Shown here one piece after another: positions 10,135 through 59,636 of a DNA stretch of 64,000 bases; the first letter of the stretch is position 1, and each line of letters begins with the position of its first letter. A program made the position numbers and the translations under genes. The notes under the pieces are model-generated. The model did no database searches and was not told where the DNA came from. It saw only the letters and a program-made list of their open reading frames with translations. The stretch is from Bordetella parapertussis. Its GTDB lineage: Bacteria > Pseudomonadota > Gammaproteobacteria > Burkholderiales > SG8-41. The stretch is from NCBI GenBank assembly GCA_945906935.1, contig CAMDSO010000001.1:67596-131595 (forward strand), written 5' to 3'.

Positions 10135-10202
10135 ACCGGCTTGCTCGCTAGAGTTTTGAACAAGCCACATTAGTAAAACCCATGCTGGATTTCCTCCGGT
10201 AG

Positions 10203-10214
10203 GGCGGTAGCATG
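10203..10214 (+). promoter_or_regulatory. ops (operon polarity suppressor)/JUMPStart-like element GGCGGTAGCATG
   Basis: It matches the enterobacterial ops consensus GGCGGTAGnnTG exactly. It is intergenic, on the coding strand, 34 nt upstream of the first gene of the O-polysaccharide operon. A partial repeat CCGGTAG sits immediately before it. The rfaH-like gene is adjacent. Confidence 0.7.
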
Positions 10215-10247
10215 TCAACGAAATGATTAACCATAGGAAAATCTAGG

Positions 10248-12977: not shown

Positions 12978-12993
12978 AAGATAGTGAACGTCA

Positions 12994-13821: not shown

Positions 13822-13822
13822 A

Positions 13823-17038: not shown

Positions 17039-17070
17039 TTCCGCGAATGACATTACGCTAACCAATCCGA

Positions 17071-21213: not shown

Positions 21214-21709
21214 GAATGACCACTGTCGTTATTATTAAGACTTACGTATTTTATAATATCTCCAGCAAGCAGCAAAAAACGAAGAGCGCTTTTGAGCGCC
21301 CCAAGGGGCGTTGCACATGACCGTGCACGGTTCGCTCAAGCCATTAGGGCAAGCAGTCGGCAAGTGCGTCGTTCTTAAGCCATACTTGTTGCCAAATCCA
21401 TCTTCAGTTGGACTACGCAGCAGCGTTGGTCGTACTGGCACCAATTGCCGCTCATCAAGCTTAGCTAAACGCCCTAGCCCTTTGAATGCTTGCGGGGTAT
21501 CAATGCAGTCTTCATCTTGCAGACTGTTCCCCGGGCGAGCATGCGCCACGCCGTCAATCGACACTTTGTTGCTTTACACAGCTACTATTGCATAGCGAAA
21601 AATTCGCCAACATAATCAATGCGGAAACAATTCTTCAGATGCTCAAAAGTCGTCATTTCTTACGCAACTATTAATAAGATGGCATGCCCCTTCGCTAAAA
21701 TCTGACCCT

Positions 21710-22510
21710 ATGGTGACATTTTCCGTAATTCTTTGTGTGAACAGAACTAACCCCTGGCTTGCTGCCGCGATCAAAAGTGTCAGGGAACAGGATGATCCTA
21801 ACTTTGAATTTCTAATTGCCGCAAATTCCTGCACCGATTCACTCTGGGAGGAACTAGGGTTTCTCGTTAAGGGAGATAACAGGGTCCGCCTGTATCGGAC
21901 CAGCATTGGTCAACTAGCCTTTAACCTAAACTTTCTGGCAGACAAGGCGACGGGGGATTACCTTATTCGAATGGATGCCGATGATATTTGCGAACTTCAC
22001 AGACTTCGAACTCTGCGCAGCGCCCTGTCAACGGACCCCGTCGATGTTCTTGGCTCGGCCGTAGTTCTCATTGACGAACAGGACAAGATAACCGGACGCA
22101 TGAATTTTCCACTGATGGAGGAAGACGTCCTACGAGCACTCGTCACTCGAACGGCCTTCTGCCACCCAGCAGTCGCCATACGCAGGCAGTTCTTACTCGA
22201 TATCCGCGGCTACCTCGGTGGATTTTTGTCGGAAGACACTGATTTATGGCTGCGGATGCGGCGAGCAGGCGGACATTTTCGCAATCTTCCTGAGCCTTTG
22301 CTGCGTTACCGTATTCATGCCCAACAGTCGACGAGTGCGCGAGTCGGCTATGCTGAGGTAGCATCCCATTGGCTACGTGAATTTTTGCTAAACCCGAGCC
22401 TATATACGCTCCGGGGATTGGGTTTGGCTCTAGTCAAATGCATTGCCGCACCATGGCTTCCACGGAGCCGAAGCTACCAGGCGAATCAAAAGTCAGTGCG
22501 CGACATTTGA
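21710..22510 (+). CDS. GT2 family glycosyltransferase
   Basis: Motifs include FSVILCVNRTNPWLAAAIKSV and DYLIRMDADD. Confidence 0.8.
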   Translation: MVTFSVILCVNRTNPWLAAAIKSVREQDDPNFEFLIAANSCTDSLWEELGFLVKGDNRVRLYRTSIGQLAFNLNFLADKATGDYLIRMDADDICELHRLRTLRSALSTDPVDVLGSAVVLIDEQDKITGRMNFPLMEEDVLRALVTRTAFCHPAVAIRRQFLLDIRGYLGGFLSEDTDLWLRMRRAGGHFRNLPEPLLRYRIHAQQSTSARVGYAEVASHWLREFLLNPSLYTLRGLGLALVKCIAAPWLPRSRSYQANQKSVRDI

Positions 22511-44343: not shown

Positions 44344-44489
44344 GACATTCCCTTTGATTAACGCACGCCCTCCGCGTACGGATTGATCGCACGAGAAAAT
44401 GCATAGGGAATTGATTCGGATCGCCACTGGCACCTGAACACCGCATCCCCGCAGCATTTCCTCACCTGTGGTTCGAGGCCGGTCTACGG

Positions 44490-44690
44490 GCTGGCGAGAT
44501 TTGACGCGCCGCCTTCCCGGGCTTTGCAGGCCCAGTGGCTATGTGGCGCGCCCACGCTCGATCACCGTTGCGGGGGCAGCACAAGAATAGGCGGCAAAAC
44601 CCGGATCAAGATCCGCATTTCACCCGCCGCACTTGTTTCCCGATTATCCCTTGCCGAGGAATTCGGCATGGGCACCTGGAACCTTGTCAC
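44490..44690 (-). promoter_or_regulatory. Cobalamin (B12) riboswitch
   Basis: The minus strand contains ...aggtgcc...GGGAtaatcGGGAAacaagtgcggcGGGTGAAAtgc...GCTGCCCCCGCAACGGTGA...AGCCACTGGGcctgcaaagCCCGGGAAGGC... These are the conserved blocks of RF00174-type elements. It lies in the 5' leader of the btuB-like gene. Confidence 0.85.
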
Positions 44691-44917
44691 CGCCCAACTG
44701 CATTGGGCAACGACCGCCGCAGTCTAACCGAAGCGGCTGCAACGCGGTTGCCGCATATCAAATGAATCGCCGGAAAAGCTGTCGGCCGAACGCACCAACA
44801 GCGTCGCAGATTTACGACACTGAGGCGAGTTTCCACCGCCTGGATCGGCACGAAGTGGTGGCTTACTCGGGTCGCGAGTTATAATATCAAAACACACTCA
44901 ATAGATTTCGTTACATA

Positions 44918-45508: not shown

Positions 45509-45690
45509 TAATCCCCTGCGGTGTTCGTCAGAGCCTTTAATTCTTTGAACCGATAATTTGCTAACTGGTTGCGGACCTCAGCGGTGCTGTTGTGAACTTC
45601 CCTCGCGGAAGAGCCTGATGCGCCCGGAAAGCGACCCCTTGAACCTTCGGTTCAGGAAGCGGGCTCAACGGCATCTGCGGGGGACCTCAT
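45509..45690 (+). ncRNA. ssrS: 6S RNA
   Basis: It occupies the conserved position 3' of zapA. The 5' arm atcccctgcggtgttcgtcagagcc can pair with the 3' arm ggctcaacggcatctgcgggggac. The segment cccttgaaccttcggttcaggaagc resembles the E. coli ccuugaaccaaggguucaaggg region. The ends are approximate. Confidence 0.8.
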
Positions 45691-47347: not shown

Positions 47348-48325
47348 TTACGGCGCAGCGAGACCGGCGGCCTTGAGCGCCCTGCCGATATTCGCAATCT
47401 CGGCTTTCATCAGCAAGGTCAGGTCATCCGGTGAACCGGGTGCGGCTTCTATGCCGGCCTGCAGAAACAATGCGTCGACCTCGGCCGACTGCAAGGCGCG
47501 CACGACTTCGCGGTTCAACCGCGTCACGATCGCCGCCGGCGTTTTGGCCGGCGCAAAAAGCGCGTGCAACGATTCCGAGGCGAACCCCGGCACGCCGGAA
47601 TCAGCAATCGTCGGTAACCCCGGCACGATTGCCGACGGCCGCGCGCTGCCGGTGGCGAGCGCCCGCAGACGCCCCGACTTCACATGCGATGCGGCACCGC
47701 TCGGTGTGGCAAAAATCGCCTGCACCTCACCGCTCATTACTGCGGTCATGGCAGGCCCGGTGCCCTTATACGGAATGCGTACGATATTCACACCAGCCAT
47801 GTGATTGAACAAAACCGCAGCAATGAAATTCGAGCTGCCCGTTCCGCCCACCGAGTAATTCATTTCGCCCGGCTTGGCGCGCGCCAGTGCGATCAACTGC
47901 CGCACGTTTTTCACCGGCAATGACGGATGCACCACCAGTAGGGTGGGAGAACGGTCGAGCAGCGTGATCGGCGCAAAATCGCCCACCGGATCGTAATTGA
48001 CTTTTTCCAGCAGGGGACCGATCCAATGTGCGCCGCCAGTCACCAGCAAGGTGTAACCATCGGGCGGTGCTTTCGCGACCAGATCGGCGAGCAGTGCGGT
48101 CGGCCGGTTATCCACCACCACCTGCTGACCCAGCGAAGCAGAAATTACCCGCGCGATGACCCGCGCGGGATAGTCATTGCCCCCACCCGCCGGAGAAGTC
48201 ACCACACGGATGGCTTTGAACGGGTATTCCTGCGCCTGCGAGACGCCTATGCCCGTCCCGCACAGAGCAGACGCCAGCAAGCTGGCGCTGAAATATTCTT
48301 CTAGCTTCGTGGCGTGGCTGCTCAT
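47348..48325 (-). CDS. Bug/TctC family tripartite tricarboxylate transporter substrate-binding protein
   Basis: It has a signal peptide, EYPFKAIRVV and IPYKGTGPAMTAV. Confidence 0.9.
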   Translation of the reverse strand: MSSHATKLEEYFSASLLASALCGTGIGVSQAQEYPFKAIRVVTSPAGGGNDYPARVIARVISASLGQQVVVDNRPTALLADLVAKAPPDGYTLLVTGGAHWIGPLLEKVNYDPVGDFAPITLLDRSPTLLVVHPSLPVKNVRQLIALARAKPGEMNYSVGGTGSSNFIAAVLFNHMAGVNIVRIPYKGTGPAMTAVMSGEVQAIFATPSGAASHVKSGRLRALATGSARPSAIVPGLPTIADSGVPGFASESLHALFAPAKTPAAIVTRLNREVVRALQSAEVDALFLQAGIEAAPGSPDDLTLLMKAEIANIGRALKAAGLAAP

Positions 48326-48343
48326 CGGATTACGCCCACCGCG

Positions 48344-48925
48344 CTATTTCAGCGCCGCCTGCAGCTCCTTAGCACCCACCACGTAACACAGCGTCGGCAG
48401 AATATTTTTGATCGTGAACGTATGGTTTTCGATGGTGTTGCTGGCGCAGGCATCGCCGACCAGAAACACGCGATAACCCATGTCGCTGGCGTGACGCGCA
48501 GTCGCCTCCACCACATAGTTGGTCCACAGCCCGACCAGAATAATCGTGTTGACGTCGGCGTTCTGCAACGCTTGATCGAGATTGGTGGTTAAGAACGGAT
48601 CGACGCAGGTCTTGTTCAGCACCAGCTCGGTCTTCAGCGGCTTGACGCGCGGATCAATCGCCGCCCCCTTGGTACCGATGATGAGCTGGCGCTTCTTGCG
48701 CAAGCCATCCCACAGCGGATTGTCACGCGGCAGATCAAGAAAATCCGCCCGCACCGAAGCGGTGATATGAATCACATTGGCCTTGCGACTGCGCGCGGTT
48801 TTCAGCACCGCAGCCATGTTCTCCATGATGCGGTTTTCCTTCAGCCCGGGGGTGATGTCGACCAGATCCTTTTGCACGTCGAGCAATAGCAAAGCGGTGC
48901 GTTTAGCGTCAATTTTCAGTTTCAT
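48344..48925 (-). CDS. Isochorismatase-family cysteine hydrolase
   Basis: Start chosen at MKLKIDAKRTALLLLDVQKD. It has ILVGLWTNYVVEATARHA, where the usual Cys position needs checking. It is 193 aa. Confidence 0.8.
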   Translation of the reverse strand: MKLKIDAKRTALLLLDVQKDLVDITPGLKENRIMENMAAVLKTARSRKANVIHITASVRADFLDLPRDNPLWDGLRKKRQLIIGTKGAAIDPRVKPLKTELVLNKTCVDPFLTTNLDQALQNADVNTIILVGLWTNYVVEATARHASDMGYRVFLVGDACASNTIENHTFTIKNILPTLCYVVGAKELQAALK

Positions 48926-48972
48926 CAGCGTCCTCTTTCGTCGTCTGTTAAAGCTCGCGCCAGCAGCGCGCC

Positions 48973-49944
48973 CTAGTTGGTTTGTTTGCCCTTCAGGCCG
49001 GCAGCTTCGACCACCCCGCCCCAAGTCGCCAGTTCGCGCCGCAACAGTACGGTGAATTCCTCAGGCGTCGAACCGATCGCCTCGACCGCGATGTCGTTCA
49101 GGCGATCGCGCACCTGCGGCTGTTTTAACGCCTGCAGCAGGGTGCTGTTGAGCTTCATGATGATGGCGCGTGGCGTATCTTTGGCCACCAGCGGTCCGTA
49201 CCAGCCGGCGGTGTTGAATTGATAGCCGCTCTCCGCGATCGTCGGCAGCTCGGGCATGAGCGCCGAACGTTTTTCACCGCCCAGCGCAATAGCGCGCAAA
49301 CGCCCGCCCTTCACCTGCGGCAGTGCCGCCGACAACCCGTTGAACATCATATCGACCTCCCCGGCCAGCAGCGCCGTCATGCCGGGCCCCGCGCCTTTGT
49401 ATGGGACATGCGTGATCTTTACCCCGGCGGTGAGGTTGAAGAGCTCGCCCGCCATATGAATACCAACACCGGTGCCGCCCGACGCGAAGTTGAGTTTGCC
49501 CGGCTGCGCCTTCGCCAGGGCGACGAGTTCCTTGACCGTTTTCGCAGCAACGTTCGGATGGACTAGTAATACATAGGGTGCCGCCGCCGCCAGCGAAACC
49601 GGCGCGAAATCCTTGAGCGTGTCGTAGGGCGTTGAGATATTGATCTGCGGCACGATCACCAGCGGCCCGGAAAACCCCAACAGAACGGTATAGCCGTCGG
49701 GTAATGCCTTGGCCGCCATCTCGGTACCGATCTGCCCGGCGGCACCGGCACGGTTGTCGATAACCATCGGTTGACCCAGTGCCTCCGACCACGCTGGCGC
49801 CAGAATGCGTGCGATGACGTCCACTGGCCCGCTGGCCGATGAGGGCGCAATCACCCGGATTGGTTTGTTCGGATATTGCTGCGCGGCGGCCGGCGCCAGC
49901 GGCAAGAGTGCTACAAGCAGACATGCCAACGGTATGGTTTTCAT
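48973..49944 (-). CDS. Bug/TctC family substrate-binding protein, translationally coupled to cofC
   Basis: It has the signal peptide MKTIPLACLLVALLPLAPAAA, QYPNKPIRVIAP and VPYKGAGPGMTALL. Its start is in an ATGA overlap with the cofC stop, with GGAGG 8 nt upstream. Confidence 0.9.
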   Translation of the reverse strand: MKTIPLACLLVALLPLAPAAAQQYPNKPIRVIAPSSASGPVDVIARILAPAWSEALGQPMVIDNRAGAAGQIGTEMAAKALPDGYTVLLGFSGPLVIVPQINISTPYDTLKDFAPVSLAAAAPYVLLVHPNVAAKTVKELVALAKAQPGKLNFASGGTGVGIHMAGELFNLTAGVKITHVPYKGAGPGMTALLAGEVDMMFNGLSAALPQVKGGRLRAIALGGEKRSALMPELPTIAESGYQFNTAGWYGPLVAKDTPRAIIMKLNSTLLQALKQPQVRDRLNDIAVEAIGSTPEEFTVLLRRELATWGGVVEAAGLKGKQTN

Positions 49945-50612
49945 TTTCCTGCCTCCACTGTTTGACGCACATCAACCGCCATCATTGCGCGCGGAATTCT
50001 AGCATCGGGGTGTGCCCGCCACGCGGCGTAATCCTGCGGCGTATCGAGATCGAAAGCGAGTTCCGGCGGCGCCTCACAAACACTGTGATAACCAGCCTGC
50101 GCAAATGCAGCGAGATGACGCGCACGGCTATCAAGCCCGAAGTGAAACAGTTCCCACGCGCCGGCGGGCATGGCCAGCGCATTGGTGCCGCTACCAGCGC
50201 GATCGGCCGCCAGCACAATGTGTTCTGCCATCGTTGCCTGCGCAGTGAACGCATCCAGCGCCGGCGCCGACAGGCGCGGCAGATCACAAGCCAGCACCAG
50301 CAAGCGCTGCGCGCCGCGCCGCGCCAACGCCTGCGCACCCAGCCTTAACGCGGCATTGAGATCACCGCCAGCCGCCTCCCGCATGGTCAGCGCACCGGCC
50401 GCCTCCGCACAGGCCAGCGCCTCAGCACAAGGGCTGACCACCAAACATTGCGCAAGATCGCCCTGCCACGCCGCGATCACTTCCAGCGTATGCGTCAGCA
50501 AATGATGGTTGAGGGCAGCGCGCGCCGGCGCGTCAAGCACCGCCGCCAGTCTCGACTTGCCGATGGCAATACCGTGCACCGGCAGCAACGTCCACCACGC
50601 CTTTGTCATCAC
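49941..50612 (-). CDS. cofC: 2-phospho-L-lactate (or PEP/3-PG) guanylyltransferase CofC/FbiD
   Basis: Motifs include LLPVHGIAIGKSRLA, LACDLPRL, DRAGSGTNAL and DLDTPQDY. Confidence 0.82.
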   Translation of the reverse strand: MMTKAWWTLLPVHGIAIGKSRLAAVLDAPARAALNHHLLTHTLEVIAAWQGDLAQCLVVSPCAEALACAEAAGALTMREAAGGDLNAALRLGAQALARRGAQRLLVLACDLPRLSAPALDAFTAQATMAEHIVLAADRAGSGTNALAMPAGAWELFHFGLDSRARHLAAFAQAGYHSVCEAPPELAFDLDTPQDYAAWRAHPDARIPRAMMAVDVRQTVEAGK

Positions 50613-51559
50613 CGGCGCTCCGCTGCCAGCCGGCGCACATAGGCGACCAGCGTCGCCGCGAGTCGCGCACTGTACGCGGGGTTGCGCATGATGGTATCGG
50701 TGACCAAGACGCCGCGCCCCATCTTCTCGATGGTCGTTTGCAACTTCGCATCGGCGTCATCGATCACCCAGCCGTCGACCAAGCCGCCGTAGTGGCGCGC
50801 AATGCCGGCGGCACTGGCATCGAGCTTGAGCTCACGCATCATTTTTGCCGCCGGCCCCTTGAGCGCTGCGCCAGCGACGATCGGCGACACCGCGACCACC
50901 GGAAAATCGCGCCGCCGCAACCATGCCCGTATCCCCGGCACAGCCAGTATCGGCGCGACGCTGACAAACGGATTCGATGGACACAACACCAGCCCGCTGA
51001 CGCGACCACTTTGCATCAAGGCCTGCAATGCGGGTGCCGGTCTGGCCGCGCGACTACCGGCAAAACGAAATCCCTGCACACGCGGCCGACAGCGTTCACG
51101 CACAAAATAATCCTGAAACGCGAGCTCGCCTGTTGCCGTGATGACGCGCGTGCGCACCGGCGCGTCGCTCATCGGCAGCAGCGCATGCCGCACACCAAGA
51201 CGCCGCGCCAGCATGGCGGTGACCGCAGACAACGTCGAGCCGGCGCGCAACGCCTCTGTGCGCAGCACATGCACCGCGAGATCGCGGTCGCCGAGATTGA
51301 ACCAGTCGCTGCCGCCGAGTTCTTTCAACGCCGTCATGAACTGCCAGCTTTCATCGCGCCGCCCCCAGCCGGTCTCTGGATTGTTGAGGCCGGCCAGCGT
51401 GTACATCACCGTATCAAGGTCCGGCGAGACATGCAGGCCGAGATGTTCAAAATCATCCCCCGTGTTCACGACGACCGATAATTGCGCCGGCTTCAATACC
51501 GCAGCAAGGCCCACCGCCAGGCGCGCACCGCCCACCCCTCCCGCAAGCGCCACCATCAT
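50609..51559 (-). CDS. cofD: 2-phospho-L-lactate transferase CofD/FbiA
   Basis: Motifs include VALAGGVGGARL, NTGDDFEHLGLHVSPDLDTVMYTLAG and GDRDLAVH. It overlaps neighbours on both sides by 4 nt. Confidence 0.9.
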   Translation of the reverse strand: MMVALAGGVGGARLAVGLAAVLKPAQLSVVVNTGDDFEHLGLHVSPDLDTVMYTLAGLNNPETGWGRRDESWQFMTALKELGGSDWFNLGDRDLAVHVLRTEALRAGSTLSAVTAMLARRLGVRHALLPMSDAPVRTRVITATGELAFQDYFVRERCRPRVQGFRFAGSRAARPAPALQALMQSGRVSGLVLCPSNPFVSVAPILAVPGIRAWLRRRDFPVVAVSPIVAGAALKGPAAKMMRELKLDASAAGIARHYGGLVDGWVIDDADAKLQTTIEKMGRGVLVTDTIMRNPAYSARLAATLVAYVRRLAAERR

Positions 51560-52320
51560 CGGAATAAATCCTCCGCCGCCGGCCGCAACAACTCGCGCGC
51601 CGTGCTCTCGCGCAAGGCATACGGAAAGCCGCGCACCAGCACCGCTGGACAGCCCTCGGCAGCCTGTCCCATCAACAGCGAAGCGGCGGCTGCCAGCTCA
51701 TCCGCCGCCGCGACCTGGGTGACCTGCAAGGCGCGGCCCTCGCGGTCACTCTGCCCGCGCAGATCAACCAGTGCCGGCACACCGGCCACCCCGATCGCGG
51801 TGCCGGTCACGCCCTGACGCCAGGCACGGCCAAAACTATCGTTGATGACAACCCCGATGCGTGCACCGCACAGCGCCTCGATCTGCTGGCGCAAATGGCG
51901 TGCCGACGCGTCGGGATCTTCGGGCAGCAACAGCACGCTGTGTTGCGTCTCGGCGGCGGGCACATTCGACTGATCGATACCGGCGCTGGCCATGATGCAA
52001 CCGAGACGATGTTCGACAATCAACACATTCGGTTTGGCCCGCAACACCGTCAGCGATTCGCGCAGCATGCAATCGACCAGTCGCGCGTCCTTGTGCGTGA
52101 GCGCAGCGAGTTCCAGTGCTCGCGCCGACGGCGTGATGTCGTCGAGACAGAGGAGACGCGCCTCGGCCTTCGAGATGATTTTTTGCGCAATGACCAGTAT
52201 GTCACCCTCGACGGGCGTCAAACCGCCGCGCGTCAGCGCCGCCAGCAACAGAGCGGCGAGATCATCACCGGCCTTGATTTCTGGCAAGCCGTCGAGCGCC
52301 AGCAATCTCATTTCACGCAT
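51556..52320 (-). CDS. cofE: Coenzyme F420-0:L-glutamate ligase CofE
   Basis: Motifs include DGDILVIAQKIISKAE, ASAGIDQSN and INDSFGRAWR. Confidence 0.88.
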   Translation of the reverse strand: MREMRLLALDGLPEIKAGDDLAALLLAALTRGGLTPVEGDILVIAQKIISKAEARLLCLDDITPSARALELAALTHKDARLVDCMLRESLTVLRAKPNVLIVEHRLGCIMASAGIDQSNVPAAETQHSVLLLPEDPDASARHLRQQIEALCGARIGVVINDSFGRAWRQGVTGTAIGVAGVPALVDLRGQSDREGRALQVTQVAAADELAAAASLLMGQAAEGCPAVLVRGFPYALRESTARELLRPAAEDLFR

Positions 52321-52335
52321 CGCGCCGCCGGCGGT

Positions 52336-53028
52336 TCAATCGCGTGGCACGCCGGTGATACGGATGCCGGCACCGGGCACCTTGTAGCGCTGGTTGATTG
52401 CAATCAACACCGAGGTCAAGGCCTCGGCCGCCGCTGAATTGACCAGCGTGCCGGCGTGCCAGCCCTGCATACCGGCGTCGCGCGCCAGCCCGATCACCGT
52501 TTCGCGCGCAGCAATGTCATCGCCACAGACCAGCACGTCGCAATCAACGTCATGTGCGAGATCCTTGAGATGAGCGGCGGAAACGTTTTGAAACGCCGAC
52601 ACCACTTTCACCCCCTCGCCCAAGGCGCGCTGCAAAGCAGCCACCGCCGAACCTGCCGTTGGCAATTGCACCCGGCTGACTTTGGGCGGCACCAAGGGTA
52701 CCGTCACATCAATCAGAATTTTTCCGGCGAGCTGTTCACGCAAAGCGAGGGCGGTCGCCTGCTGTGCAGCAAACGGCACCGCCAGCACGACGATGCCCTG
52801 CGCCGCCGCCTCCATGTTCGAGCCGCCGCGCAATGCACCGCGCGCGCCGAGCAGGGCGTTAAAGGTCTGCGCCGCCTGCTGTGCCTTGTCGGCATCGCGT
52901 GAACCAATGATCACATCATGACCGGCCGCCGCCCAGCGCAGCGCCAGACCGCCGCCCTCGTCTCCGCTGCCACCGATCACGCCAATAGAAATTTTCACCG
53001 TGCTTGTCGCCATCATCTTCCTTGCCAT
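52336..53028 (-). CDS. npdG: NADPH-dependent F420 reductase (Fno/NpdG)
   Basis: The segment ISIGVIGGSGDEGGGLALRWAAAGHDVIIGSRD matches the NpdG N-terminus. It is ~230 aa. Confidence 0.85.
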   Translation of the reverse strand: MARKMMATSTVKISIGVIGGSGDEGGGLALRWAAAGHDVIIGSRDADKAQQAAQTFNALLGARGALRGGSNMEAAAQGIVVLAVPFAAQQATALALREQLAGKILIDVTVPLVPPKVSRVQLPTAGSAVAALQRALGEGVKVVSAFQNVSAAHLKDLAHDVDCDVLVCGDDIAARETVIGLARDAGMQGWHAGTLVNSAAAEALTSVLIAINQRYKVPGAGIRITGVPRD

Positions 53029-53080
53029 CGAAATTTTGTTTCTGTTTACTGATGCTGTGTGCTTGCGCTCTCTACAAAGG

Positions 53081-55444
53081 CTAGGCCGCCGCGGTGAAGC
53101 GACGACGCAGCGGCATCCCTAGCGTCGGCAGCGCGGCCAGGGCGGCGGCCTCGTAGGAGGCTTGCACACGCGCCGCCGCCGGCACACCGTAGAGCGTGGT
53201 GCGCTGCTCAGGTCTGCGGCCGCAGGCACGGATCAGTTCATCCATCGCCTGCGGCGCCATTTCCTGACCGTGCTGGGTGCCGGCGGCGTGTGAAATGGTT
53301 TCGTTCATCAGCGTGCCGCCCAGATCATTGGCGCCGGCCGCCAGACAGGCGGCCACACCGGCCTCACCCATCTTCACCCACGAGACCTGGATGTTGGTCA
53401 GCAACGGGCTGAGCGCCAGTCGCGCCACCGCGTGCATCAACACCGCCTCACGAAACGTCGGCCCCTTGCGCGCGCCGCCGCGCCGGTAGACCGGCGCCTC
53501 CATGTGCACGAAGGGCAGTGGCACCAGTTCGGTAAAGCCCTGCGTTTTTTCCTGCAGCGTACGAATGCGCAGCAAATGCCGCGCCCAATGCCGCGGCGCC
53601 TCAACATGCCCGAACATGATGGTGGCGGTTGAGCGCAAGCCAAGCGCGTGCGCGGTTTGCATGATGTCCAACCATTCCGCGGTGGTGACCTTGCCCGGAC
53701 AAATCCGCGCGCGGATTTCATCATCGAGAATCTCGGCCGCGGTGCCCGGCAGTGTATTGAGTCCGGCTTGCATCAATTGCTGCAGAAAAACGCGCACTGT
53801 CAGGCCCAGGGTCTCTGCACCATGCGCGACTTCCAGCGGCGTAAACGCGTGCACATGCATCTGCGGCGCGGCGCGCTTGACCGCACGCACGATCTCAAGA
53901 TAAGTGTCGCCAGTGTAATCGGGGTGTATGCCACCCTGCATGCAGACTTCGGTAGCGCCGCGCGCCCACGCCTCATCGACGCGGCGTTCGATTTCGCCCA
54001 GCGGCAAATCATAGGGTGTGCCGCGCAACGCAGCGGCATGTGTGCCCTTGGAAAAAGCACAGAAGGTGCAACGATAGGTGCAGATATTGGTGTAGTTGAT
54101 ATTGCGATTGACCACATAGCGCACGGTGTCGCCGACCGTTGCATGGCGCAGCGCGTCGGCTTCCGCGCAAACAAAATGAAACGCATCGCCGCGACTGGCG
54201 AAGAGACTTTCGATCTCAGCCTCGGCGAGCGTCGCACCGTCGCGTGCACGCGCCACAATTTCACGCAGCGCGGGTGCGACCCCGCCGCCATGCGTGAGCG
54301 CCGGTGGTGCGACCACCAGCCCCGGTGACCACACGCCTTCGCGCGCATAACCTTCAGCGTCGCTGGCGCGCAGCACAGCAGTGGCAATCGCCGGCGCGTG
54401 CCACTGCACGGCCGCACGGCAATAGGCGGGATAACTGGGCAGACGCTCCTGCAGCAGCTTGCCGCGTGCTGCCGTAATAACACGCAAGCGTGCAAGCGCC
54501 GGCCACGGCGCTTCCGGATTGACGTGATCCGGCGTGACCGGCGAAATGCCGCCCCAATCGTTGATGCCGGCGTCGATCAATTCACCGCAATCATCACCGC
54601 TCAAATTAGGCGGTGCCTGAATGTTCATCTGCGCCCCGAGCAACAGACGCGCCACCGCGATGGTCCACAACAATTCCTCACGCGGCGCATCGGCCACCGC
54701 CGCCATGCGGGTGCCGGCTTTGGCGCGAAAGTTCTGGACAATGACTTCCTGTACATGGCCATACTGCGCGTGCACTTCGCGTATGGCCAGCAGGGTCTCA
54801 ATCCGTTCGGCGCGCGTCTCACCGATGCCGATCAACAGCCCCGTGGTAAACGGCACGCTCAATTCACCCGCCATGCGTAAGGTCTCAAGTCGTAGTGCCG
54901 GCTGTTTATCCGGCGAGCCGAAGTGCGGGCCGCCACGTTCGCACAAACGCCCGGCCATGCTCTCCAGCATCAAACCCTGCGACGCCGATACCGCACGCAG
55001 GCGCGCGATATCGTGCCGCGACATCACGCCGGGATTCACATGCGGCAGCAAACCGGTTTCCTCGCGCACCAGCGCACACATCGCAACCAGATAATCGATG
55101 GTGTTCGCGTAGCCGAGTGCGGCGAGTTCATCGCGGGCGGCTTTGTAACGCCGCTCGGGCTTGTCACCCAGCGTAAAGAGCGCCTCGTGGCAGCCCGCCT
55201 CGCGACCCGCGCGGGCCACTGCCAACACCTCGTCGGCGGTCAAATAAGCCTGGCGCCCGGGCTGCGGTGCGATTGCAAAAGTGCAGTAGTGACAAGAGTC
55301 GCGACACAGCCGCGTCAGCGGAATAAACACCTTGCGTGAATACGAAACGACGGCGCCGTGATTAGCGTCACGCAGCGCCGCCGCCCGCGGCATCAGATCG
55401 GCGGCCCGCGCGTCGATATAACCTGCGATGTCAGCTTCGCTCAA
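53081..55444 (-). CDS. fbiC: Bifunctional FO synthase FbiC (CofG-CofH fusion; 7,8-didemethyl-8-hydroxy-5-deazariboflavin synthase)
   Basis: It has two radical-SAM CxxxCxxC sites, CRDSCHYC and CTYRCTFC. It is 787 aa. Confidence 0.92.
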   Translation of the reverse strand: MSEADIAGYIDARAADLMPRAAALRDANHGAVVSYSRKVFIPLTRLCRDSCHYCTFAIAPQPGRQAYLTADEVLAVARAGREAGCHEALFTLGDKPERRYKAARDELAALGYANTIDYLVAMCALVREETGLLPHVNPGVMSRHDIARLRAVSASQGLMLESMAGRLCERGGPHFGSPDKQPALRLETLRMAGELSVPFTTGLLIGIGETRAERIETLLAIREVHAQYGHVQEVIVQNFRAKAGTRMAAVADAPREELLWTIAVARLLLGAQMNIQAPPNLSGDDCGELIDAGINDWGGISPVTPDHVNPEAPWPALARLRVITAARGKLLQERLPSYPAYCRAAVQWHAPAIATAVLRASDAEGYAREGVWSPGLVVAPPALTHGGGVAPALREIVARARDGATLAEAEIESLFASRGDAFHFVCAEADALRHATVGDTVRYVVNRNINYTNICTYRCTFCAFSKGTHAAALRGTPYDLPLGEIERRVDEAWARGATEVCMQGGIHPDYTGDTYLEIVRAVKRAAPQMHVHAFTPLEVAHGAETLGLTVRVFLQQLMQAGLNTLPGTAAEILDDEIRARICPGKVTTAEWLDIMQTAHALGLRSTATIMFGHVEAPRHWARHLLRIRTLQEKTQGFTELVPLPFVHMEAPVYRRGGARKGPTFREAVLMHAVARLALSPLLTNIQVSWVKMGEAGVAACLAAGANDLGGTLMNETISHAAGTQHGQEMAPQAMDELIRACGRRPEQRTTLYGVPAAARVQASYEAAALAALPTLGMPLRRRFTAAA

Positions 55445-55509: not shown

Positions 55510-56469
55510 TTACTGTTTGACACCGGTCGCCTTAACCACATCGGCCCACGTTTTCATGTCCTGCTCGAGCATCTGCTGCATCGCTTCGGGCGAGAGCTTC
55601 ATCGCTTCGGCGGCATTGGCGGCGAAAATTTCACGCGACTTCGGTGCCTCAACCGCTTTGGCAATTTCCGCATTGAGCTGCTCGATGAGATTACGCGGCG
55701 TATTGGCCGGCGCAAAAATCCCGGCGATCACCGCGGCATCTACACCCCGCACGGTTTCACCCAGCGCCGGAATCTCCGGAAACGCCGCAACGCGCTTGTC
55801 TGCGGTGATGCCGATGGCAATCAACCGTTTGCTACGCACGTATTCAATCGCCGCCGGGATCGTGTTGACGATCAGCGACAACTCTCCGGTGAGTAACGAC
55901 ACCGTCGAGGTCGTACCGCCTTTGTAATTGACCATTTCGAGATTGATGCCGGCGCGCATGCGGAATTTCTCTGCGGCCATGTGCGTGACGGTGCCCACAC
56001 CCGAATTACCGCAGGTGATACCCGGATTTTTCTTCGCCAGCGCAATCAGTTCTTTAGCCGACTTCACCCCCAGCGAAGGATGCGCCACCATGATCAGCGG
56101 GGACGTCGAGACTGGCGCCACCGCCATCAAATCACGCTGCGGGTTGTACGAGAGTTTGGAATACAGCGACGGCGTGATGGCATGCGTCGACATATCGGTA
56201 AACAACAGCGTATAGCCATCGGCTGCCGACTTGGCGACGAGTTCGGCCGCAATGGTGGTGCCTGCGCCCGGCCGGTTTTCAACGATCACCTGCTGACCAA
56301 GACTCTTCGTCAATTCCGCCGCCGTGATGCGCGAAAAGGTATCGGTCGCGCCGCCAGTGGCAAACGCCACCACGAGGCGTACCGGCTTGGCCGGATAAGT
56401 CTGCGCCTGCACTGCCGTGCCCAGGGTGGCCGCGACTGCCGCACTCATCAACGCTATCGTCTTATGCAT
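55510..56469 (-). CDS. Bug/TctC family substrate-binding protein
   Basis: It has a signal peptide, TYPAKPVRLVVAF and VNYKGG. Confidence 0.9.
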   Translation of the reverse strand: MHKTIALMSAAVAATLGTAVQAQTYPAKPVRLVVAFATGGATDTFSRITAAELTKSLGQQVIVENRPGAGTTIAAELVAKSAADGYTLLFTDMSTHAITPSLYSKLSYNPQRDLMAVAPVSTSPLIMVAHPSLGVKSAKELIALAKKNPGITCGNSGVGTVTHMAAEKFRMRAGINLEMVNYKGGTTSTVSLLTGELSLIVNTIPAAIEYVRSKRLIAIGITADKRVAAFPEIPALGETVRGVDAAVIAGIFAPANTPRNLIEQLNAEIAKAVEAPKSREIFAANAAEAMKLSPEAMQQMLEQDMKTWADVVKATGVKQ

Positions 56470-56509
56470 GCTCCGTCTCCTCCGGTTGCTGCAGGTTTTG
56501 AATCAGGCG

Positions 56510-57463
56510 TTATTGTTTTATAAAAGCCGGCACCACGTCGCGCACAAAGGTTTCCATCTGTTCGACCTGATCGGTACCGGCAATGCGGATGCACAGATCG
56601 GTCACGCCCGCCGCCTCGTAGAGCTTCAGCGTTTCAATCACCTTGGCGACCGGCCCTAACCCCATCAGCCCGCGGTAATTGACACCACCGCCGTAATATT
56701 CGGCCAGAAACTTCGCCGTATCGGCTTCGGCTTTGGCCACATCGTTTTCAATGCGCACCGTCGTATACACGCACATCGGAAAATCAGGCAGCGAACGATT
56801 CTGTTTCAGCAGCGCTTCGTTACACAGTTCGCGCAGCTTGCGGCAATCGTCATCGGTCAGATAAGTGGCGATAATGCCGTCGCCGAGACGCGCAAAGCGG
56901 TCGATCTGCGCCGGGATAAATTCGCCACGATTGCCCGCCGTCATCAGCACGGGAGGGCCAGCCTCATTCCACGGCAGCGGACCGATGGTGTGATCGGTCA
57001 GTTTGAAATCGCTGCCTTGATAGGTCACCGGCTCGCCGCTCCACAACATGCGCCAGACAGTGACATGTTCTTCGAGATCTTTGACACGCCGCTTGTGCAC
57101 GCGGCCGCAGGCCTCCCATTCGCGCTCGATAGCCGGCAACTTCCAGCCGACCCCAAGGCCCAGCACCAGCCGGCCCTGCGAAATCTGATCAATGTTGGCG
57201 AGCGCACCAGCGAGCACCGTCGGCTGACGCAAGGCCGGCAGCAAAATCGCCGTGCCCAAACGTGCACGCTTGGTCATTGCCGCGACATACGCCAGGGTGG
57301 TCAGCGGATCGAGCCGCGGTTTGGCGACGATGGAATCGCCGACCCAGACATCCATGCCTGCTTCATCAGCCATGCGCGCGATGGTCCAGCACTGCTCGAC
57401 CGGCGGACGCCGCGCGGATTGAATCACTACACCCCGATGGGGCAACAACACGCCTAATCTCAT
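56510..57463 (-). CDS. Luciferase-like monooxygenase (LLM) class oxidoreductase, probably F420-dependent
   Basis: It has a TIM-barrel LLM pattern (..LGTAILLPALRQPTVLAGALANIDQISQGRLVLGLGVGW..). It lies next to the F420 biosynthesis genes. Confidence 0.8.
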   Translation of the reverse strand: MRLGVLLPHRGVVIQSARRPPVEQCWTIARMADEAGMDVWVGDSIVAKPRLDPLTTLAYVAAMTKRARLGTAILLPALRQPTVLAGALANIDQISQGRLVLGLGVGWKLPAIEREWEACGRVHKRRVKDLEEHVTVWRMLWSGEPVTYQGSDFKLTDHTIGPLPWNEAGPPVLMTAGNRGEFIPAQIDRFARLGDGIIATYLTDDDCRKLRELCNEALLKQNRSLPDFPMCVYTTVRIENDVAKAEADTAKFLAEYYGGGVNYRGLMGLGPVAKVIETLKLYEAAGVTDLCIRIAGTDQVEQMETFVRDVVPAFIKQ

Positions 57464-57545
57464 TTAAATCTCCCCCTGATTCTGTAATGCCATTTTGTCG
57501 GAGCCTCGTTCACTCATTGTGTTGAGAAACACGCGCAGCCGCATC

Positions 57546-58769
57546 CTAAACCACGCCATCCGCTTTGAGTTTAGCAATTTCAGCATCGCTCTTCTTCAGC
57601 GACTGGCGCAGGATTTCATCGGTGTGCTGGCCCAGCGCAGGTGGCGGCACCTCATGCTTGATCGGCGTGCCGGAAAAGCGCATCGGACTCGCCACCAGCG
57701 AGACCTTGCCGGCCACCGCATGCGGCAATTCGATTTTCATACCGCGCGCGATCACCTGCGGTTCTTCGAACACCTGTTGCAGATTGTTGATCGGACCGTT
57801 GGCAACGCCCGCGTCGTCAAGTAGCTTGACCCACTCCTTGGTCGTGCGTTTGGCGAACAACGCATTGAGCAGCGCGGTGATTTCGGCGCGGTTCTGTACG
57901 CGCGCCGCATTGGTCGAGAATTTCAGATCGGTCGTGAGCTCCATGCAACCGGCGACTTCGCAAAACTTCTTGAACAGGTTGTCGTTGCCGCAGGCCAGAA
58001 TGATCGCCCCATCGGCGGTATTGAAAGTTTGATACGGCACGATGTTCGGATGCGCATTGCCGATGCGCTCGGGCGACACACCGGTGGCCAGATAATTCAT
58101 GCCCTGATTGGCCAGATACGCCACCGTGGTGTCGAGCAGCGCGACGTCGATCCACTGGCCCTTGCCGGTGACGGCACGATTGGCGAGTGCGGCGCAGATC
58201 GCAATCGTCGCGTACATGCCAGTGGTCAGATCAATGATCGGCACACCGCAACGCTGCGGCCCGCCACCGGGCACGCTATCGGGCTCGCCCGTGATGCTCA
58301 TCATGCCACCCATGCCCTGCGCCATGAAATCGTAGCCGGGACGGTCTTTGTAGGGGCCGGTCTGGCCGAAGCCGGTGACCGAGCAATAAATCAAACCCGG
58401 ATTGATTTTGGCGAGGTCTTCATAACCAAGACCATAACGCGCCAGATCACCGACCTTGTAGTTTTCGAGCAGCACGTCGCACTCCGCGGCGAGCTCGCGC
58501 ACCAGTTGCTGGCCCTCGGGCTTGGTGAGATTGACCGTGATCGAACGCTTGCCACGATTGGCGGCGCAGAAGTACGCCGACTCGCGGGTCTCGTTGCCGT
58601 TCTCGTCTTTCAGAAACGGCGGCGCATACGCGCGCGAATCATCGCCTTTGACTGGGCGCTCAACCTTGATCACATCGGCGCCGAGATCGGCCAGATTCTG
58701 CGCGGCCCACGGAGCGGCCAGCACACGCGACATGTCGAGAACTTTGATATGGGATAACGGGCCAGACAT
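57546..58769 (-). CDS. Family III CoA-transferase (CaiB/BaiF/Frc-like)
   Basis: It has IKVLDMSRVLAAPWAAQNLADLGADVIKVERP and the catalytic Asp region. Confidence 0.9.
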   Translation of the reverse strand: MSGPLSHIKVLDMSRVLAAPWAAQNLADLGADVIKVERPVKGDDSRAYAPPFLKDENGNETRESAYFCAANRGKRSITVNLTKPEGQQLVRELAAECDVLLENYKVGDLARYGLGYEDLAKINPGLIYCSVTGFGQTGPYKDRPGYDFMAQGMGGMMSITGEPDSVPGGGPQRCGVPIIDLTTGMYATIAICAALANRAVTGKGQWIDVALLDTTVAYLANQGMNYLATGVSPERIGNAHPNIVPYQTFNTADGAIILACGNDNLFKKFCEVAGCMELTTDLKFSTNAARVQNRAEITALLNALFAKRTTKEWVKLLDDAGVANGPINNLQQVFEEPQVIARGMKIELPHAVAGKVSLVASPMRFSGTPIKHEVPPPALGQHTDEILRQSLKKSDAEIAKLKADGVV

Positions 58770-58853
58770 TTTTCTTCCTTATTGAGCAGTCGAAATTAAG
58801 CGATATGCGCGCGGCACCTCAAGCGTGCCGCCTCACACCTCACTCCTTACGCC

Positions 58854-59636
58854 TTACTTGCCTTTGAAAACAGGCTTGGTTTTGTTGATGAACGCATCGT
58901 AACCGATGCGATAGTCTTCGGTTTTGAAATAGTCGAAGTTGGCGTTGATCTCAACGGCGGTCAACGGCGTCGCCTGCGGCGTCAAGCGGCGGATAAACTG
59001 TTTATGCCAACGCGCCACCAAGGGCGCGCCGTCAGCGATACGCCGCGCGGTTGCATAGGCTTCGTCGATCACCTTGTCGTCGGCTACCACTCGCGTCAGC
59101 AAGCCTTTGGCAAACGCCTCGTCAGCGCGCCACATGCGCCCCTCGATCAAAATCTCCGCGGCAACCGCACGCCCCGCCACCGCGATCAATCCGGCGAGTT
59201 CGCCATAGGCCAATGCAAAGCCGAGGCGGTTGATCGGCACGCCAAGCCGCGCAGACACACCGGCAATGCGCAAATCACAGCAGCACGCCAATTCAAGTCC
59301 GCCGCCGGCGCAAGCACCTTTGATCAAGGCAACGGTCGGATGCCGGCATTCGGCCAGCGCCTTCAAGGCAGTGGCGACGGTTTCAAGATGATAGGTCTTG
59401 CCCTGCTCGACGTTGTTGCGCTGCATGGCAAACTCGGCAATATCAGCACCCGCCGCAAACGCCTCATCCCCGGCGCCGCGCAGCACGATACAACGCAGGC
59501 TGTCATCCGCAGACAATTCATGCATCACGCGCGCGAGCTCGCGCCACATCGCAACGGTTAACGCGTTGAGCTTGGCGGGGTTGTTGATGGCAACGGTGGC
59601 AATGACGCCGTCGCGCGTGAGGTCGATTGAGGACAA
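58854..59636 (-). CDS. Enoyl-CoA hydratase/isomerase (crotonase) family protein
   Basis: Motifs include VLRGAGDEAFAAGADI and GACAGGGLELACCCDLRIA. Confidence 0.9.
   Translation of the reverse strand: MSSIDLTRDGVIATVAINNPAKLNALTVAMWRELARVMHELSADDSLRCIVLRGAGDEAFAAGADIAEFAMQRNNVEQGKTYHLETVATALKALAECRHPTVALIKGACAGGGLELACCCDLRIAGVSARLGVPINRLGFALAYGELAGLIAVAGRAVAAEILIEGRMWRADEAFAKGLLTRVVADDKVIDEAYATARRIADGAPLVARWHKQFIRRLTPQATPLTAVEINANFDYFKTEDYRIGYDAFINKTKPVFKGK

What the first reader, a model, noticed from the sequence alone, without database searches (positions are those of the whole stretch)
49941..55444. Complete coenzyme F420 biosynthesis operon (fbiC-fno-cofE-cofD-cofC) in a Bug-rich, Burkholderiales-like genome
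Seen in the sequence: a fused CofG/CofH FO synthase with two CxxxCxxC radical-SAM sites is followed by an Fno/NpdG reductase, CofE, CofD and CofC. The last three junctions are 4-nt overlaps. Established knowledge: F420 is classically a cofactor of archaea and actinobacteria. Production by some Proteobacteria has been shown only recently. The head-group precursor differs between lineages: 2-phospholactate, PEP-derived dehydro-F420, or 3-phosphoglycerate in a Burkholderia-related endosymbiont. CofE here is the short ligase-only form (254 aa) without the FbiB nitroreductase-like C-domain, which bears on whether a PEP route is possible. Inference: the organism makes an F420-type cofactor whose exact structure cannot be read from the sequence.
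Basis: partly seen in the sequence, partly recalled or inferred. Interest (0 to 1): 0.6.

Follow-up and report, generated by a model that had tools for sequence, protein, structure and literature searches.

The report
F420 cofactor operon in uncultured Burkholderiales
An uncultured Burkholderiales bacterium carries an intact five-gene set for making and recharging the redox cofactor F420, an ordinary new example of a known proteobacterial operon that probably makes the classical lactyl form rather than the rare 3-phosphoglycerate form.

Summary
On the minus strand, 49941-55444 encodes FbiC, Fno, CofE, CofD and CofC. Each matches its NCBIfam equivalog model over full length and above the curated cut-off. 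The catalytic residues I could check are present.

CofC has Gly159, Leu85, Leu89 and Ser141 where the 3-phosphoglycerate enzyme of Mycetohabitans has Ser162, Met91, Cys95 and His145. It also falls outside that enzyme's position in a CofC tree. 3PG-F420 is therefore unlikely.

No dehydro-F420 reductase (FbiB C-domain or FbiE) is found in this genome or in 28 of 30 related CofE-bearing genomes. Two other Burkholderiales families keep an fbiE-like gene between cofE and cofD. Whether 2-phospholactate or PEP is the donor stays open. This is a known gap for such operons.

CofE occurs in about 6% of sampled Burkholderiales genomes and about half the species of this genus.

The operon sits in a conserved 12-gene same-strand cluster. 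One member, a luciferase-like oxidoreductase, has orthologues only in CofE-positive genomes. It is the best candidate user of F420.

Verdict: real, ordinary, a new member of a known kind.

The parts
53081..55444 (-). fbiC: fused CofG/CofH FO synthase, 787 aa, TTG start
   Evidence: NF006687 scores 1125.8 bits (cut-off 1018). The CofG domain covers aa 34-357 and the CofH domain aa 408-753. CxxxCxxC motifs start at aa 47 and aa 455.
52336..53028 (-). fno/npdG: NADPH-dependent F420 reductase, 230 aa
   Evidence: TIGR01915 equivalog scores 202.2 bits (cut-off 149.8) over model positions 2-220 of 220. PF03807 also matches.
51556..52320 (-). cofE: single-domain F420-0:gamma-glutamyl ligase, 254 aa, no nitroreductase domain
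   Evidence: TIGR01916 scores 283.5 bits (cut-off 180.65) over model positions 1-244 of 244. The best PDB match is A. fulgidus CofE 2PHN (E 1e-52, full length). The FbiB-type model NF009810 falls below its cut-off.
50609..51559 (-). cofD: phospho-C3-acid transferase, 316 aa; its ATG overlaps the cofE stop (ATGA)
   Evidence: TIGR01819 scores 305.1 bits (cut-off 257.45). D35 and D47 align with the metal ligands D45 and D57 of M. smegmatis FbiA. Matches to M. mazei CofD 3C3D (194 bits) and FbiA 6UVX (185 bits) are about equal.
49941..50612 (-). cofC: C3-acid guanylyltransferase, 223 aa from GTG or 222 aa from ATG 50609; start overlaps the cofD stop
   Evidence: TIGR03552 scores 115.7 bits (cut-off 105). 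K19, D110, T143, S162, D188 and D190 are conserved. L85, L89, S141 and G159 sit where the 3-PG enzyme 7P97 has M91, C95, H145 and S162.
48973..49944 (-). Bug/TctC periplasmic binding protein, 323 aa, start overlaps the cofC stop (context, not biosynthetic)
   Evidence: PF03401 matches at E 4e-68. The junction is an ATGA overlap with GGAGG 8 nt upstream. The gene holds this position in same-genus and other-genus loci.
48344..48925 (-). isochorismatase-family hydrolase (context; start approximate)
   Evidence: PF00857 matches at E 9e-38. It is conserved downstream of the Bug gene in G008 and G024 (88-95% identity) and in L003.
47348..48325 (-). second downstream Bug/TctC protein (context)
   Evidence: PF03401 matches at E 3e-56. 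An 86% identical copy holds the same place in G008.
55510..56469 (-). Bug/TctC protein directly upstream of fbiC (context)
   Evidence: PF03401 matches at E 1e-61. It is conserved between the LLM gene and fbiC in L005, L007, L008, L009, G008, G024, G035 and G254.
56510..57463 (-). luciferase-like (LLM) oxidoreductase, 317 aa: best candidate F420-dependent enzyme
   Evidence: The top NCBIfam hits are F420-type LLM families (TIGR03619, 141 bits, below the 166.9 cut-off). Orthologues of at least 74% identity occur in 10 of the 61 genomes searched (own genome included). All 10 are among the 23 CofE-positive genomes and carry the LLM gene on the cofE contig. None occurs in the 38 CofE-negative genomes, Fisher p 1.3e-5.
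57546..58769 (-). family III CoA-transferase (context)
   Evidence: PF02515 matches at E 1e-132. Copies of 94-96% identity hold the same place in G008 and G024, and a 76% copy in L008.
58854..59636 (-). enoyl-CoA hydratase/crotonase (context; first gene of the same-strand cluster)
   Evidence: PF00378 matches at E 2.5e-48. Copies of 87-92% identity hold the same place in G008 and G024.

Best explanation
This is a functional F420 biosynthesis and reduction operon of the stand-alone-CofE proteobacterial type.

Inferred pathway (from family membership and established biochemistry, none of it assayed here):
- FbiC makes the deazaflavin head group FO from tyrosine and 5-amino-6-ribitylamino-uracil.
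- CofC activates a phosphorylated C3 acid with GTP.
- CofD transfers that acid to FO.
- CofE adds the gamma-glutamyl tail.
- Fno reduces the finished cofactor with NADPH.

The C3 acid is most likely 2-phospho-L-lactate or PEP, giving classical lactyl-F420 or its dehydro precursor. It is unlikely to be 3-phosphoglycerate.

The lineage has no recognisable dehydro-F420 reductase. Either it has a source of 2-PL, or an unrelated enzyme reduces dehydro-F420.

The genome has few recognisable F420-dependent enzymes. The cofactor probably serves mainly the co-inherited LLM oxidoreductase in the same conserved cluster. That cluster also holds a CoA-transferase, a crotonase, Bug binding proteins and an isochorismatase-like hydrolase.
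For: Intactness:
- All five proteins pass equivalog cut-offs with full-length coverage.
- FbiC has both radical-SAM cysteine motifs.
- CofC keeps K19, D110, T143, S162, D188 and D190. These are invariant or nearly invariant in the first 39-sequence alignment and conserved in at least 98 of the 117 sequences of the larger one.
- CofD keeps the FbiA metal ligands.
- CofE aligns end to end with solved CofE.
- The operon is conserved with intact frames at 79-98% identity in other species of the genus.

Not the 3-PG type:
- The profile and MAFFT alignments agree with the residue numbers published in PMC8764529. They put window G159 opposite Ser162 of 7P97 and Gly163 of Mtb-FbiD.
- They put L85, L89 and S141 opposite M91, C95 and H145.
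- Only 7P97 has Ser in that column among 117 sequences. The 19 further Burkholderiales CofCs all have Gly there.
- In the ML tree the window sits in a Burkholderiales-MAG clade (30 rows, SH-aLRT 91), apart from 7P97.

No FbiE:
- TIGR03553 scores at best 18.6 bits in this 97.5%-complete genome.
- Nothing scores above 60 bits in 28 of 30 CofE-positive relatives. G248 and G308 have 138-140-bit hits between cofE and cofD.

Clients:
- Five LLM-family ORFs were found; two of them, this window's LLM and one on contig C25, best match the F420-type family TIGR03619 (141 and 165 bits) but fall below its 166.9-bit cut-off.
- No PF04075 hit was found, and no TIGR03618 hit reaches its cut-off.
- The LLM orthologue is strictly linked to CofE.
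Against:
- CofC assays cannot tell 2-PL from PEP, and the cognate CofD also selects the intermediate (PMC8764529). No CofD residues diagnostic for that choice are known.
- 7P97 is the best PDB match of this CofC (58.5 bits alone, 168.6 bits with a profile, against 129 for Mtb-FbiD). Overall similarity therefore does not separate the two types; only the pocket residues and the tree do.
- The position of 7P97 in the tree is weakly supported.
- The PF04075 search did not ring in any control genome, so that absence is not proven.
- The LLM scores below the TIGR03619 cut-off.
Confidence: 0.85

Rival explanations
1. PEP route with an unrecognised reductase, or dehydro-F420 as the end product. CofC and CofD would use PEP as in mycobacteria. 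A non-homologous enzyme, possibly the co-clustered LLM, would reduce dehydro-F420-0, or the cell would tolerate the dehydro form. This is a sub-case of the main explanation rather than a contradiction of it.
For: - PEP is abundant, whereas no 2-PL-forming enzyme is known in any organism (PMC6450877, PMC8498797).
- Sister Burkholderiales operons keep an fbiE-like gene between cofE and cofD. The PEP route therefore exists in the order, and this operon type may derive from one that had it.
- An LLM orthologue is tightly linked to the operon.
Against: - No FbiE-like protein scores above 60 bits in this lineage.
- The LLM orthologue is missing from G005, a 98%-complete genome with a window-type CofD (68% identity). 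It is also missing from most carriers of the second operon type, so it is not a universal biosynthetic partner.
- Dehydro-F420 is reported to be less stable (PMC8764529).
- CofCs of other Gram-negative bacteria preferred 2-PL in vitro.
Confidence: 0.3
2. 3PG-F420 producer like the Burkholderia-related fungal endosymbiont Mycetohabitans.
For: - The host is in the same order.
- CofE is stand-alone and no dehydro-F420 reductase is present. This is the metabolic background proposed to favour the switch to 3-PG.
- 7P97 is the top PDB match of this CofC.
Against: - Gly159 sits at the diagnostic Ser/Thr position, and Leu, Leu and Ser sit at the M91, C95 and H145 positions.
- In the published mutagenesis, S162 mutants other than S162T lost the 3-PG preference.
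- The window is not grouped with 7P97 in the tree.
- Identity to 7P97 is below 35%.
Confidence: 0.05
3. Decaying or non-functional operon, or FO-only production (for example as a photolyase antenna) with the tail genes inactive.
For: - The distribution is patchy (about half the species of the genus).
- In-frame TAG stops occur in the cofD of two other species, G017 and G003.
- The genome has very few recognisable F420-dependent enzymes.
Against: - All five frames are open, full length and above equivalog cut-offs, with catalytic residues intact.
- The genes are translationally coupled.
- The operon is conserved with its neighbours across genera at 63-98% identity.
Confidence: 0.03

Closest known systems
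Proteobacterial F420 clusters with stand-alone CofE (Paracoccus denitrificans, Oligotropha carboxidovorans; Ney et al. 2017 as cited in PMC8498797; CofC assays in PMC8764529)
   Same: The host is Gram-negative. FbiC is fused, CofE is single-domain, Fno is the F420 reductase and CofC carries Gly at the diagnostic site. The source of the C3 donor is unresolved and few client enzymes are known.
   Different: The gene order here is fbiC-fno-cofE-cofD-cofC. Most alpha- and gammaproteobacterial loci retrieved have fno-cofE-cofD-cofC-fbiC. Here the operon is embedded in a conserved LLM, Bug and CoA-transferase cluster. The host is an uncultured Burkholderiales family.
Mycetohabitans (Paraburkholderia) rhizoxinica / sp. 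B3 3PG-F420 pathway (Braga 2019; Hasan 2022, PDB 7P97)
   Same: The order is the same (Burkholderiales). CofE is stand-alone and no dehydro-F420 reductase is present. Its CofC is the nearest solved structure by sequence.
   Different: The window's CofC has G159, L85, L89 and S141 instead of S162, M91, C95 and H145, and it is placed elsewhere in the tree. No ABC exporter lies next to the operon.
Thermomicrobium roseum / mycobacterial PEP route with FbiE or the FbiB C-domain
   Same: The FbiC, CofC/FbiD, CofD/FbiA and CofE/FbiB-N chemistry is the same. Two other Burkholderiales families (G248, G308) carry this variant, with an fbiE-like gene between cofE and cofD.
   Different: Here cofE and cofD overlap by ATGA, leaving no room for fbiE. 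No FbiE-like gene is found anywhere in the genome.
Archaeal CofC/CofD/CofE 2-PL route
   Same: CofE is single-domain and is closest to A. fulgidus CofE. CofD scores slightly higher against M. mazei CofD than against FbiA.
   Different: FbiC is fused rather than split into CofG and CofH. Fno sits inside the operon and the host is bacterial. The 2-PL source is unknown in both cases.

Membership tests
F420 biosynthesis pathway (FbiC, CofC, CofD, CofE) plus Fno | FO synthase with both CofG and CofH radical-SAM domains, each with a CxxxCxxC cluster motif | tested here: met
   NF006687 scores 1125.8 bits against a cut-off of 1018. TIGR03550 covers aa 34-357 and TIGR03551 covers aa 408-753. The motifs start at aa 47 and aa 455.
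F420 biosynthesis pathway (FbiC, CofC, CofD, CofE) plus Fno | CofC guanylyltransferase with the three Mg-binding Asp residues, the conserved Lys and the carboxylate-binding Ser | tested here: met
   TIGR03552 scores 115.7 bits against a cut-off of 105. D110, D188, D190, K19, T143 and S162 are conserved and align to D116, D188 and D190 of Mtb-FbiD and to K26 and S165 of 7P97.
F420 biosynthesis pathway (FbiC, CofC, CofD, CofE) plus Fno | CofD/FbiA transferase with the two metal-ligand Asp residues | tested here: met
   TIGR01819 scores 305.1 bits against a cut-off of 257.45. D35 and D47 align with FbiA D45 and D57.
F420 biosynthesis pathway (FbiC, CofC, CofD, CofE) plus Fno | CofE gamma-glutamyl ligase, full length | tested here: met
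   TIGR01916 scores 283.5 bits against a cut-off of 180.65 over positions 1-244 of 244. 2PHN aligns over residues 5-254. Individual Mn ligands were not checked.
F420 biosynthesis pathway (FbiC, CofC, CofD, CofE) plus Fno | NADPH:F420 oxidoreductase (Fno/NpdG) | tested here: met
   TIGR01915 scores 202.2 bits against a cut-off of 149.8.
F420 biosynthesis pathway (FbiC, CofC, CofD, CofE) plus Fno | The organism actually produces a deazaflavin | not testable with these tools
   The organism is uncultured, known only from a metagenome-type assembly.
3PG-F420 pathway (Mycetohabitans type) | Ser or Thr at the CofC position equivalent to Mrhiz-CofC S162 | tested here: not met
   The window has Gly159. 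The column holds Gly in 105 of 117 sequences, and only 7P97 has Ser.
3PG-F420 pathway (Mycetohabitans type) | Supporting pocket residues M91, C95 and H145 | tested here: not met
   The window has L85, L89 and S141.
3PG-F420 pathway (Mycetohabitans type) | CofC belongs to the Mycetohabitans clade | tested here: not met
   ML tree of 117 CofCs. The window sits in a Burkholderiales-MAG clade (SH-aLRT 91). 7P97 sits elsewhere on a long, weakly supported branch.
3PG-F420 pathway (Mycetohabitans type) | Cognate CofD prefers the 3-PG-derived intermediate GPPG | not testable with these tools
   No diagnostic CofD residues are published. No Mycetohabitans CofD sequence was fetched.
PEP / dehydro-F420 route (mycobacteria, Thermomicrobia) | Dehydro-F420-0 reductase: FbiB C-terminal nitroreductase domain or stand-alone FbiE | tested here: not met
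   TIGR03553 scores at best 18.6 bits in this genome, and both hits are generic nitroreductases on other contigs. The feature is absent in 28 of 30 related carriers and present (138-140 bits) in G248 and G308.
PEP / dehydro-F420 route (mycobacteria, Thermomicrobia) | The CofC/CofD pair selects PEP/EPPG | not testable with these tools
   This requires a coupled enzyme assay with the cognate pair (PMC8764529).
2-PL route (archaeal type) | Single-domain CofE and a CofC pocket of the 2-PL/PEP type | tested here: met
   
2-PL route (archaeal type) | A cellular source of 2-phospho-L-lactate | not testable with these tools
   The enzyme (CofB) is unidentified in any organism (PMC8498797). A literature search from 2021 onward found no report of it.

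The most novel reading that the evidence does not exclude
The 12-gene cluster may be a self-contained, horizontally exchanged module that carries a cofactor together with its client enzyme. In this uncultured Burkholderiales family the whole F420 pathway would be kept mainly to serve one strictly co-inherited LLM oxidoreductase. That enzyme would act with a CoA-transferase, a crotonase and an isochorismatase-like hydrolase on a carboxylate captured by the Bug proteins. Because the lineage has no FbiE, it would also need an undiscovered 2-PL source or a non-homologous dehydro-F420 reductase. This would give a concrete physiological role for F420 in Proteobacteria.
Probability: 0.3. Interest if true: 0.55.

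Novelty: new member of a known kind. Interest (0 to 1): 0.3.

Why it matters
The role of F420 in Proteobacteria is a stated open question (PMC8498797). So is the way bacteria without FbiB-C or FbiE obtain a saturated lactyl side chain (PMC6450877, PMC8764529). This locus does not answer either question.

It does add three things:
- A Burkholderiales lineage, in the same order as the 3PG-F420 producers, keeps the ancestral Gly pocket.
- FbiE-bearing and FbiE-less operons coexist in the order, and two operon types coexist in one genus.
- An LLM orthologue was found only where the F420 genes are, which makes it a tractable first enzyme to test.

As an operon it is ordinary.

Tried and rejected
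No expression or read support, and no information on the environment, could be obtained.
- Ney et al. 2017 (PMC5315465) and Braga et al. 2020 (PMC7267189) are not held. What I say about them comes from the review PMC8498797 and from Hasan 2022.
- The single-sequence HMMER alignment to 7P97 placed Ser162 opposite Phe. I rejected that placement. The profile alignment, the MAFFT alignment and the conserved G-x-x-S spacing all put it opposite Gly159.
- I considered the adjacent LLM as a substitute dehydro-F420 reductase. It is not supported as a general solution. The orthologue is missing from G005, a 98%-complete carrier with a window-type CofD (68% identity). Of the seven carriers of the second operon type, only G032 has it.
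- I considered recent transfer from a high-GC donor. The operon's GC is 64.3% against 58.9% for the genome, within the top 4.5% of long ORFs. GC3 is typical, so the result is inconclusive.
- Promoter and terminator scans found nothing above the shuffled background and no terminator between the cluster genes. No riboswitch lies near the operon.
- The PF04075 (Ddn-type) search found nothing, but it also rang in no control genome, so that absence is not shown.
- I did not fetch Mycetohabitans CofD for a CofD tree. No diagnostic CofD residues are known, so the cost was not justified.

Full report
**Observation.** Five consecutive minus-strand ORFs occupy exactly 49941-55444. Pfam and NCBIfam identify them as follows.
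- FbiC: NF006687, 1125.8 bits against a cut-off of 1018. The CofG domain covers aa 34-357 and the CofH domain aa 408-753.
- Fno/NpdG: TIGR01915, 202.2 against 149.8.
- CofE: TIGR01916, 283.5 against 180.65, model positions 1-244 of 244.
- CofD: TIGR01819, 305.1 against 257.45.
- CofC: TIGR03552, 115.7 against 105.

FbiC has CxxxCxxC motifs starting at residues 47 and 455.

The junctions are a 52-nt gap, a 15-nt gap, an ATGA overlap (cofE/cofD) and a GTGA overlap (cofD/cofC; 1 nt if the ATG that homologues use is the start).

**Are the enzymes intact?** In an alignment of 39 CofC homologues, K19, R21, D110, G159, S162, H166, D188 and D190 are invariant. A profile search of the PDB aligns these to published functional residues of Mtb-FbiD (D116, G163, S166, D188, D190) and Mycetohabitans CofC (K26, D116, S165, D191, D193). 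I checked the chain numbering against the residue numbers given in PMC8764529.

CofD keeps D35 and D47, the counterparts of the FbiA metal ligands D45 and D57. CofE aligns over its whole length with A. fulgidus CofE (2PHN, E 1e-52).

The same operon, with open frames, occurs at 97-98% identity (G001) and 79-86% (G008, G024) for fno, cofE and cofD in other species of the genus; cofC is more divergent there (94% and 62-65%). A pseudo-operon is very unlikely.

**Which side chain?** Hasan et al. (PMC8764529) showed that Ser162 of the Mycetohabitans CofC is the diagnostic residue for 3-PG activation. It is Gly163 in Mtb-FbiD. M91, C95 and H145 contribute.

The first single-sequence HMMER alignment misplaced a gap and put Ser162 opposite a Phe. 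The profile alignment and a MAFFT alignment of 117 sequences both put it opposite Gly159. That placement preserves the G/S-x-x-S spacing. The window has L85, L89, S141 and G159 where 7P97 has M91, C95, H145 and S162.

Only 7P97 carries Ser in that column. Nineteen further CofCs from CofE-bearing Burkholderiales genomes all have Gly.

In a maximum-likelihood tree the window's CofC lies in a clade of Burkholderiales-MAG sequences (30 rows, SH-aLRT 91). That clade nests with Anaerolineales and alphaproteobacterial sequences. 7P97 and Mtb-FbiD lie elsewhere, and 7P97 is only weakly placed.

7P97 is nevertheless the best-scoring solved structure for this CofC. Overall similarity is therefore no guide here; the pocket residues are. 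I conclude that 3PG-F420 is unlikely.

**PEP or 2-PL?** The FbiB C-terminal/FbiE model (TIGR03553) finds only two generic nitroreductases at 17-19 bits, on other contigs of this 97.5%-complete genome. Among 30 CofE-positive relatives, 28 have nothing above 60 bits.

Two genomes from other families, G248 and G308, have a 138-140-bit FbiE-like gene exactly between cofE and cofD. In the window those two genes overlap by ATGA. The order thus holds both FbiE-bearing (PEP-route) and FbiE-less operons.

For the FbiE-less type the literature leaves the donor open (PMC6450877, PMC8498797, PMC8764529). CofC assays do not separate 2-PL from PEP, the cognate CofD co-selects the intermediate, and no 2-PL-forming enzyme is known. 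A literature search from 2021 onward found no report of one. I cannot go further with sequence alone.

**Distribution.** CofE is found in the following fractions:
- 15 of 29 species of the window's genus;
- 4 of 8 other genera of its family;
- 18 of 299 high-quality genomes and 10 of 144 genera sampled across the order.

The closest CofD relatives (65-67% identity) are Burkholderiales or Betaproteobacteria MAGs. Hundreds of more distant relatives occur in alpha- and gammaproteobacterial, acidobacterial and Chloroflexi MAGs.

Within the genus there are two operon types. One is the window type, with CofD at 66% identity or more. The other has CofD at 53-57% identity and, where I read the locus (G017, G020), a different gene order. 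Other genera of the family also carry CofCs only 25-27% identical to the window's. This points to repeated transfer or replacement.

The operon's GC is high for the genome (64.3% against 58.9%), but GC3 is typical, so composition is not informative.

**Context and likely use.** The operon is the core of a 12-gene same-strand cluster. The order is crotonase, family III CoA-transferase, LLM oxidoreductase, Bug, fbiC-fno-cofE-cofD-cofC, Bug, isochorismatase-like hydrolase, Bug. The whole cluster is conserved in G008 and G024. The core from the LLM gene to the first downstream Bug gene is conserved in other genera and in MAG loci L005 and L008; L003, L007 and L009 hold as much of it as their contigs reach.

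Orthologues of the LLM (74% identity or more) occur in 10 of the 61 genomes searched (own genome included). All 10 are among the 23 CofE-positive genomes, and in each the LLM gene lies on the cofE contig. None of the 38 CofE-negative genomes has one (Fisher p 1.3e-5). G032 has the LLM next to the other operon type, and G148 has it next to fno with no fbiC detected in the 20 kb read.

The genome otherwise has few recognisable F420 clients. It has one further near-cut-off F420-type LLM on contig C25 and no TIGR03618-class enzyme above its cut-off. A PF04075 search found nothing, although that search also rang in no control genome.

The adjacent LLM is therefore the best candidate user of the cofactor. 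It is not a universal biosynthetic partner. It is missing from G005, a 98%-complete carrier with a window-type CofD (68% identity), and from six of the seven carriers of the second operon type.

**Comparison and verdict.** This is a stand-alone-CofE proteobacterial F420 operon. The same kind is reported for Paracoccus and Oligotropha and predicted for Betaproteobacteria (PMC8498797). It differs from the Mycetohabitans 3PG system in the CofC pocket. It differs from the mycobacterial and Thermomicrobia route in lacking a dehydro-F420 reductase.

It is a new member of a known kind. Its modest interest lies in the conserved link between the LLM and the F420 genes and in the side-by-side occurrence of FbiE-bearing and FbiE-less operons in one order. 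Earlier notes of this scan on similar operons reached the same ordinary verdict. I treat them as leads only.

Noticed in passing
G060:C1:124985-126435 (loci L105, L127): A 0.9-Mb, single-contig, 100%-complete Burkholderiales genome, the size of an endosymbiont's, still carries fno, cofE, cofD and cofC. Its CofC has Gly at the 3-PG diagnostic site. F420 genes retained in so reduced a genome would be worth a look of their own.
   Followed up: partly
L118 (G248:C4) about 10103-10648; L119 (G308:C12): Two other Burkholderiales families carry an FbiE-like nitroreductase gene (138-140 bits to TIGR03553) between cofE and cofD. Their order is fbiC, LLM, fno, cofE, fbiE, cofD. This is the PEP-route variant within the same order.
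   Followed up: partly
L121 (G017:C3), L122 (G020:C7); also G003, G016, G025: Species of the window's own genus carry a second F420 operon type, with CofD at 53-57% identity and, in G017 and G020, a different gene order. The cofD of G017 and of G003 each has one in-frame TAG, which may mean decay or a sequencing error.
   Followed up: partly
window 47348-49944 and 55510-59636: The Bug gene is translationally coupled to cofC. The crotonase, CoA-transferase, LLM and Bug genes upstream of fbiC are conserved with the operon across genera. The whole looks like one catabolic module for an imported carboxylate.
   Followed up: partly
genome contig C25:30362-31261: A second LLM scores 165.0 bits against TIGR03619, just under the 166.9 cut-off. 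It is another possible F420-dependent enzyme. Its neighbourhood was not examined.
   Followed up: no
window 44460-44694 (-) and 45510-45687 (+): A cobalamin riboswitch (97 bits) lies upstream of the TonB-dependent receptor at 42478-44457. A 6S RNA gene (84 bits) lies just before the EVE-domain gene.
   Followed up: no
window about 10000-22000: A 12-kb stretch has GC of 0.47-0.51 against about 0.59-0.62 in the flanks. It is packed with same-strand ORFs and may be a horizontally acquired island, for example for surface polysaccharide.
   Followed up: no
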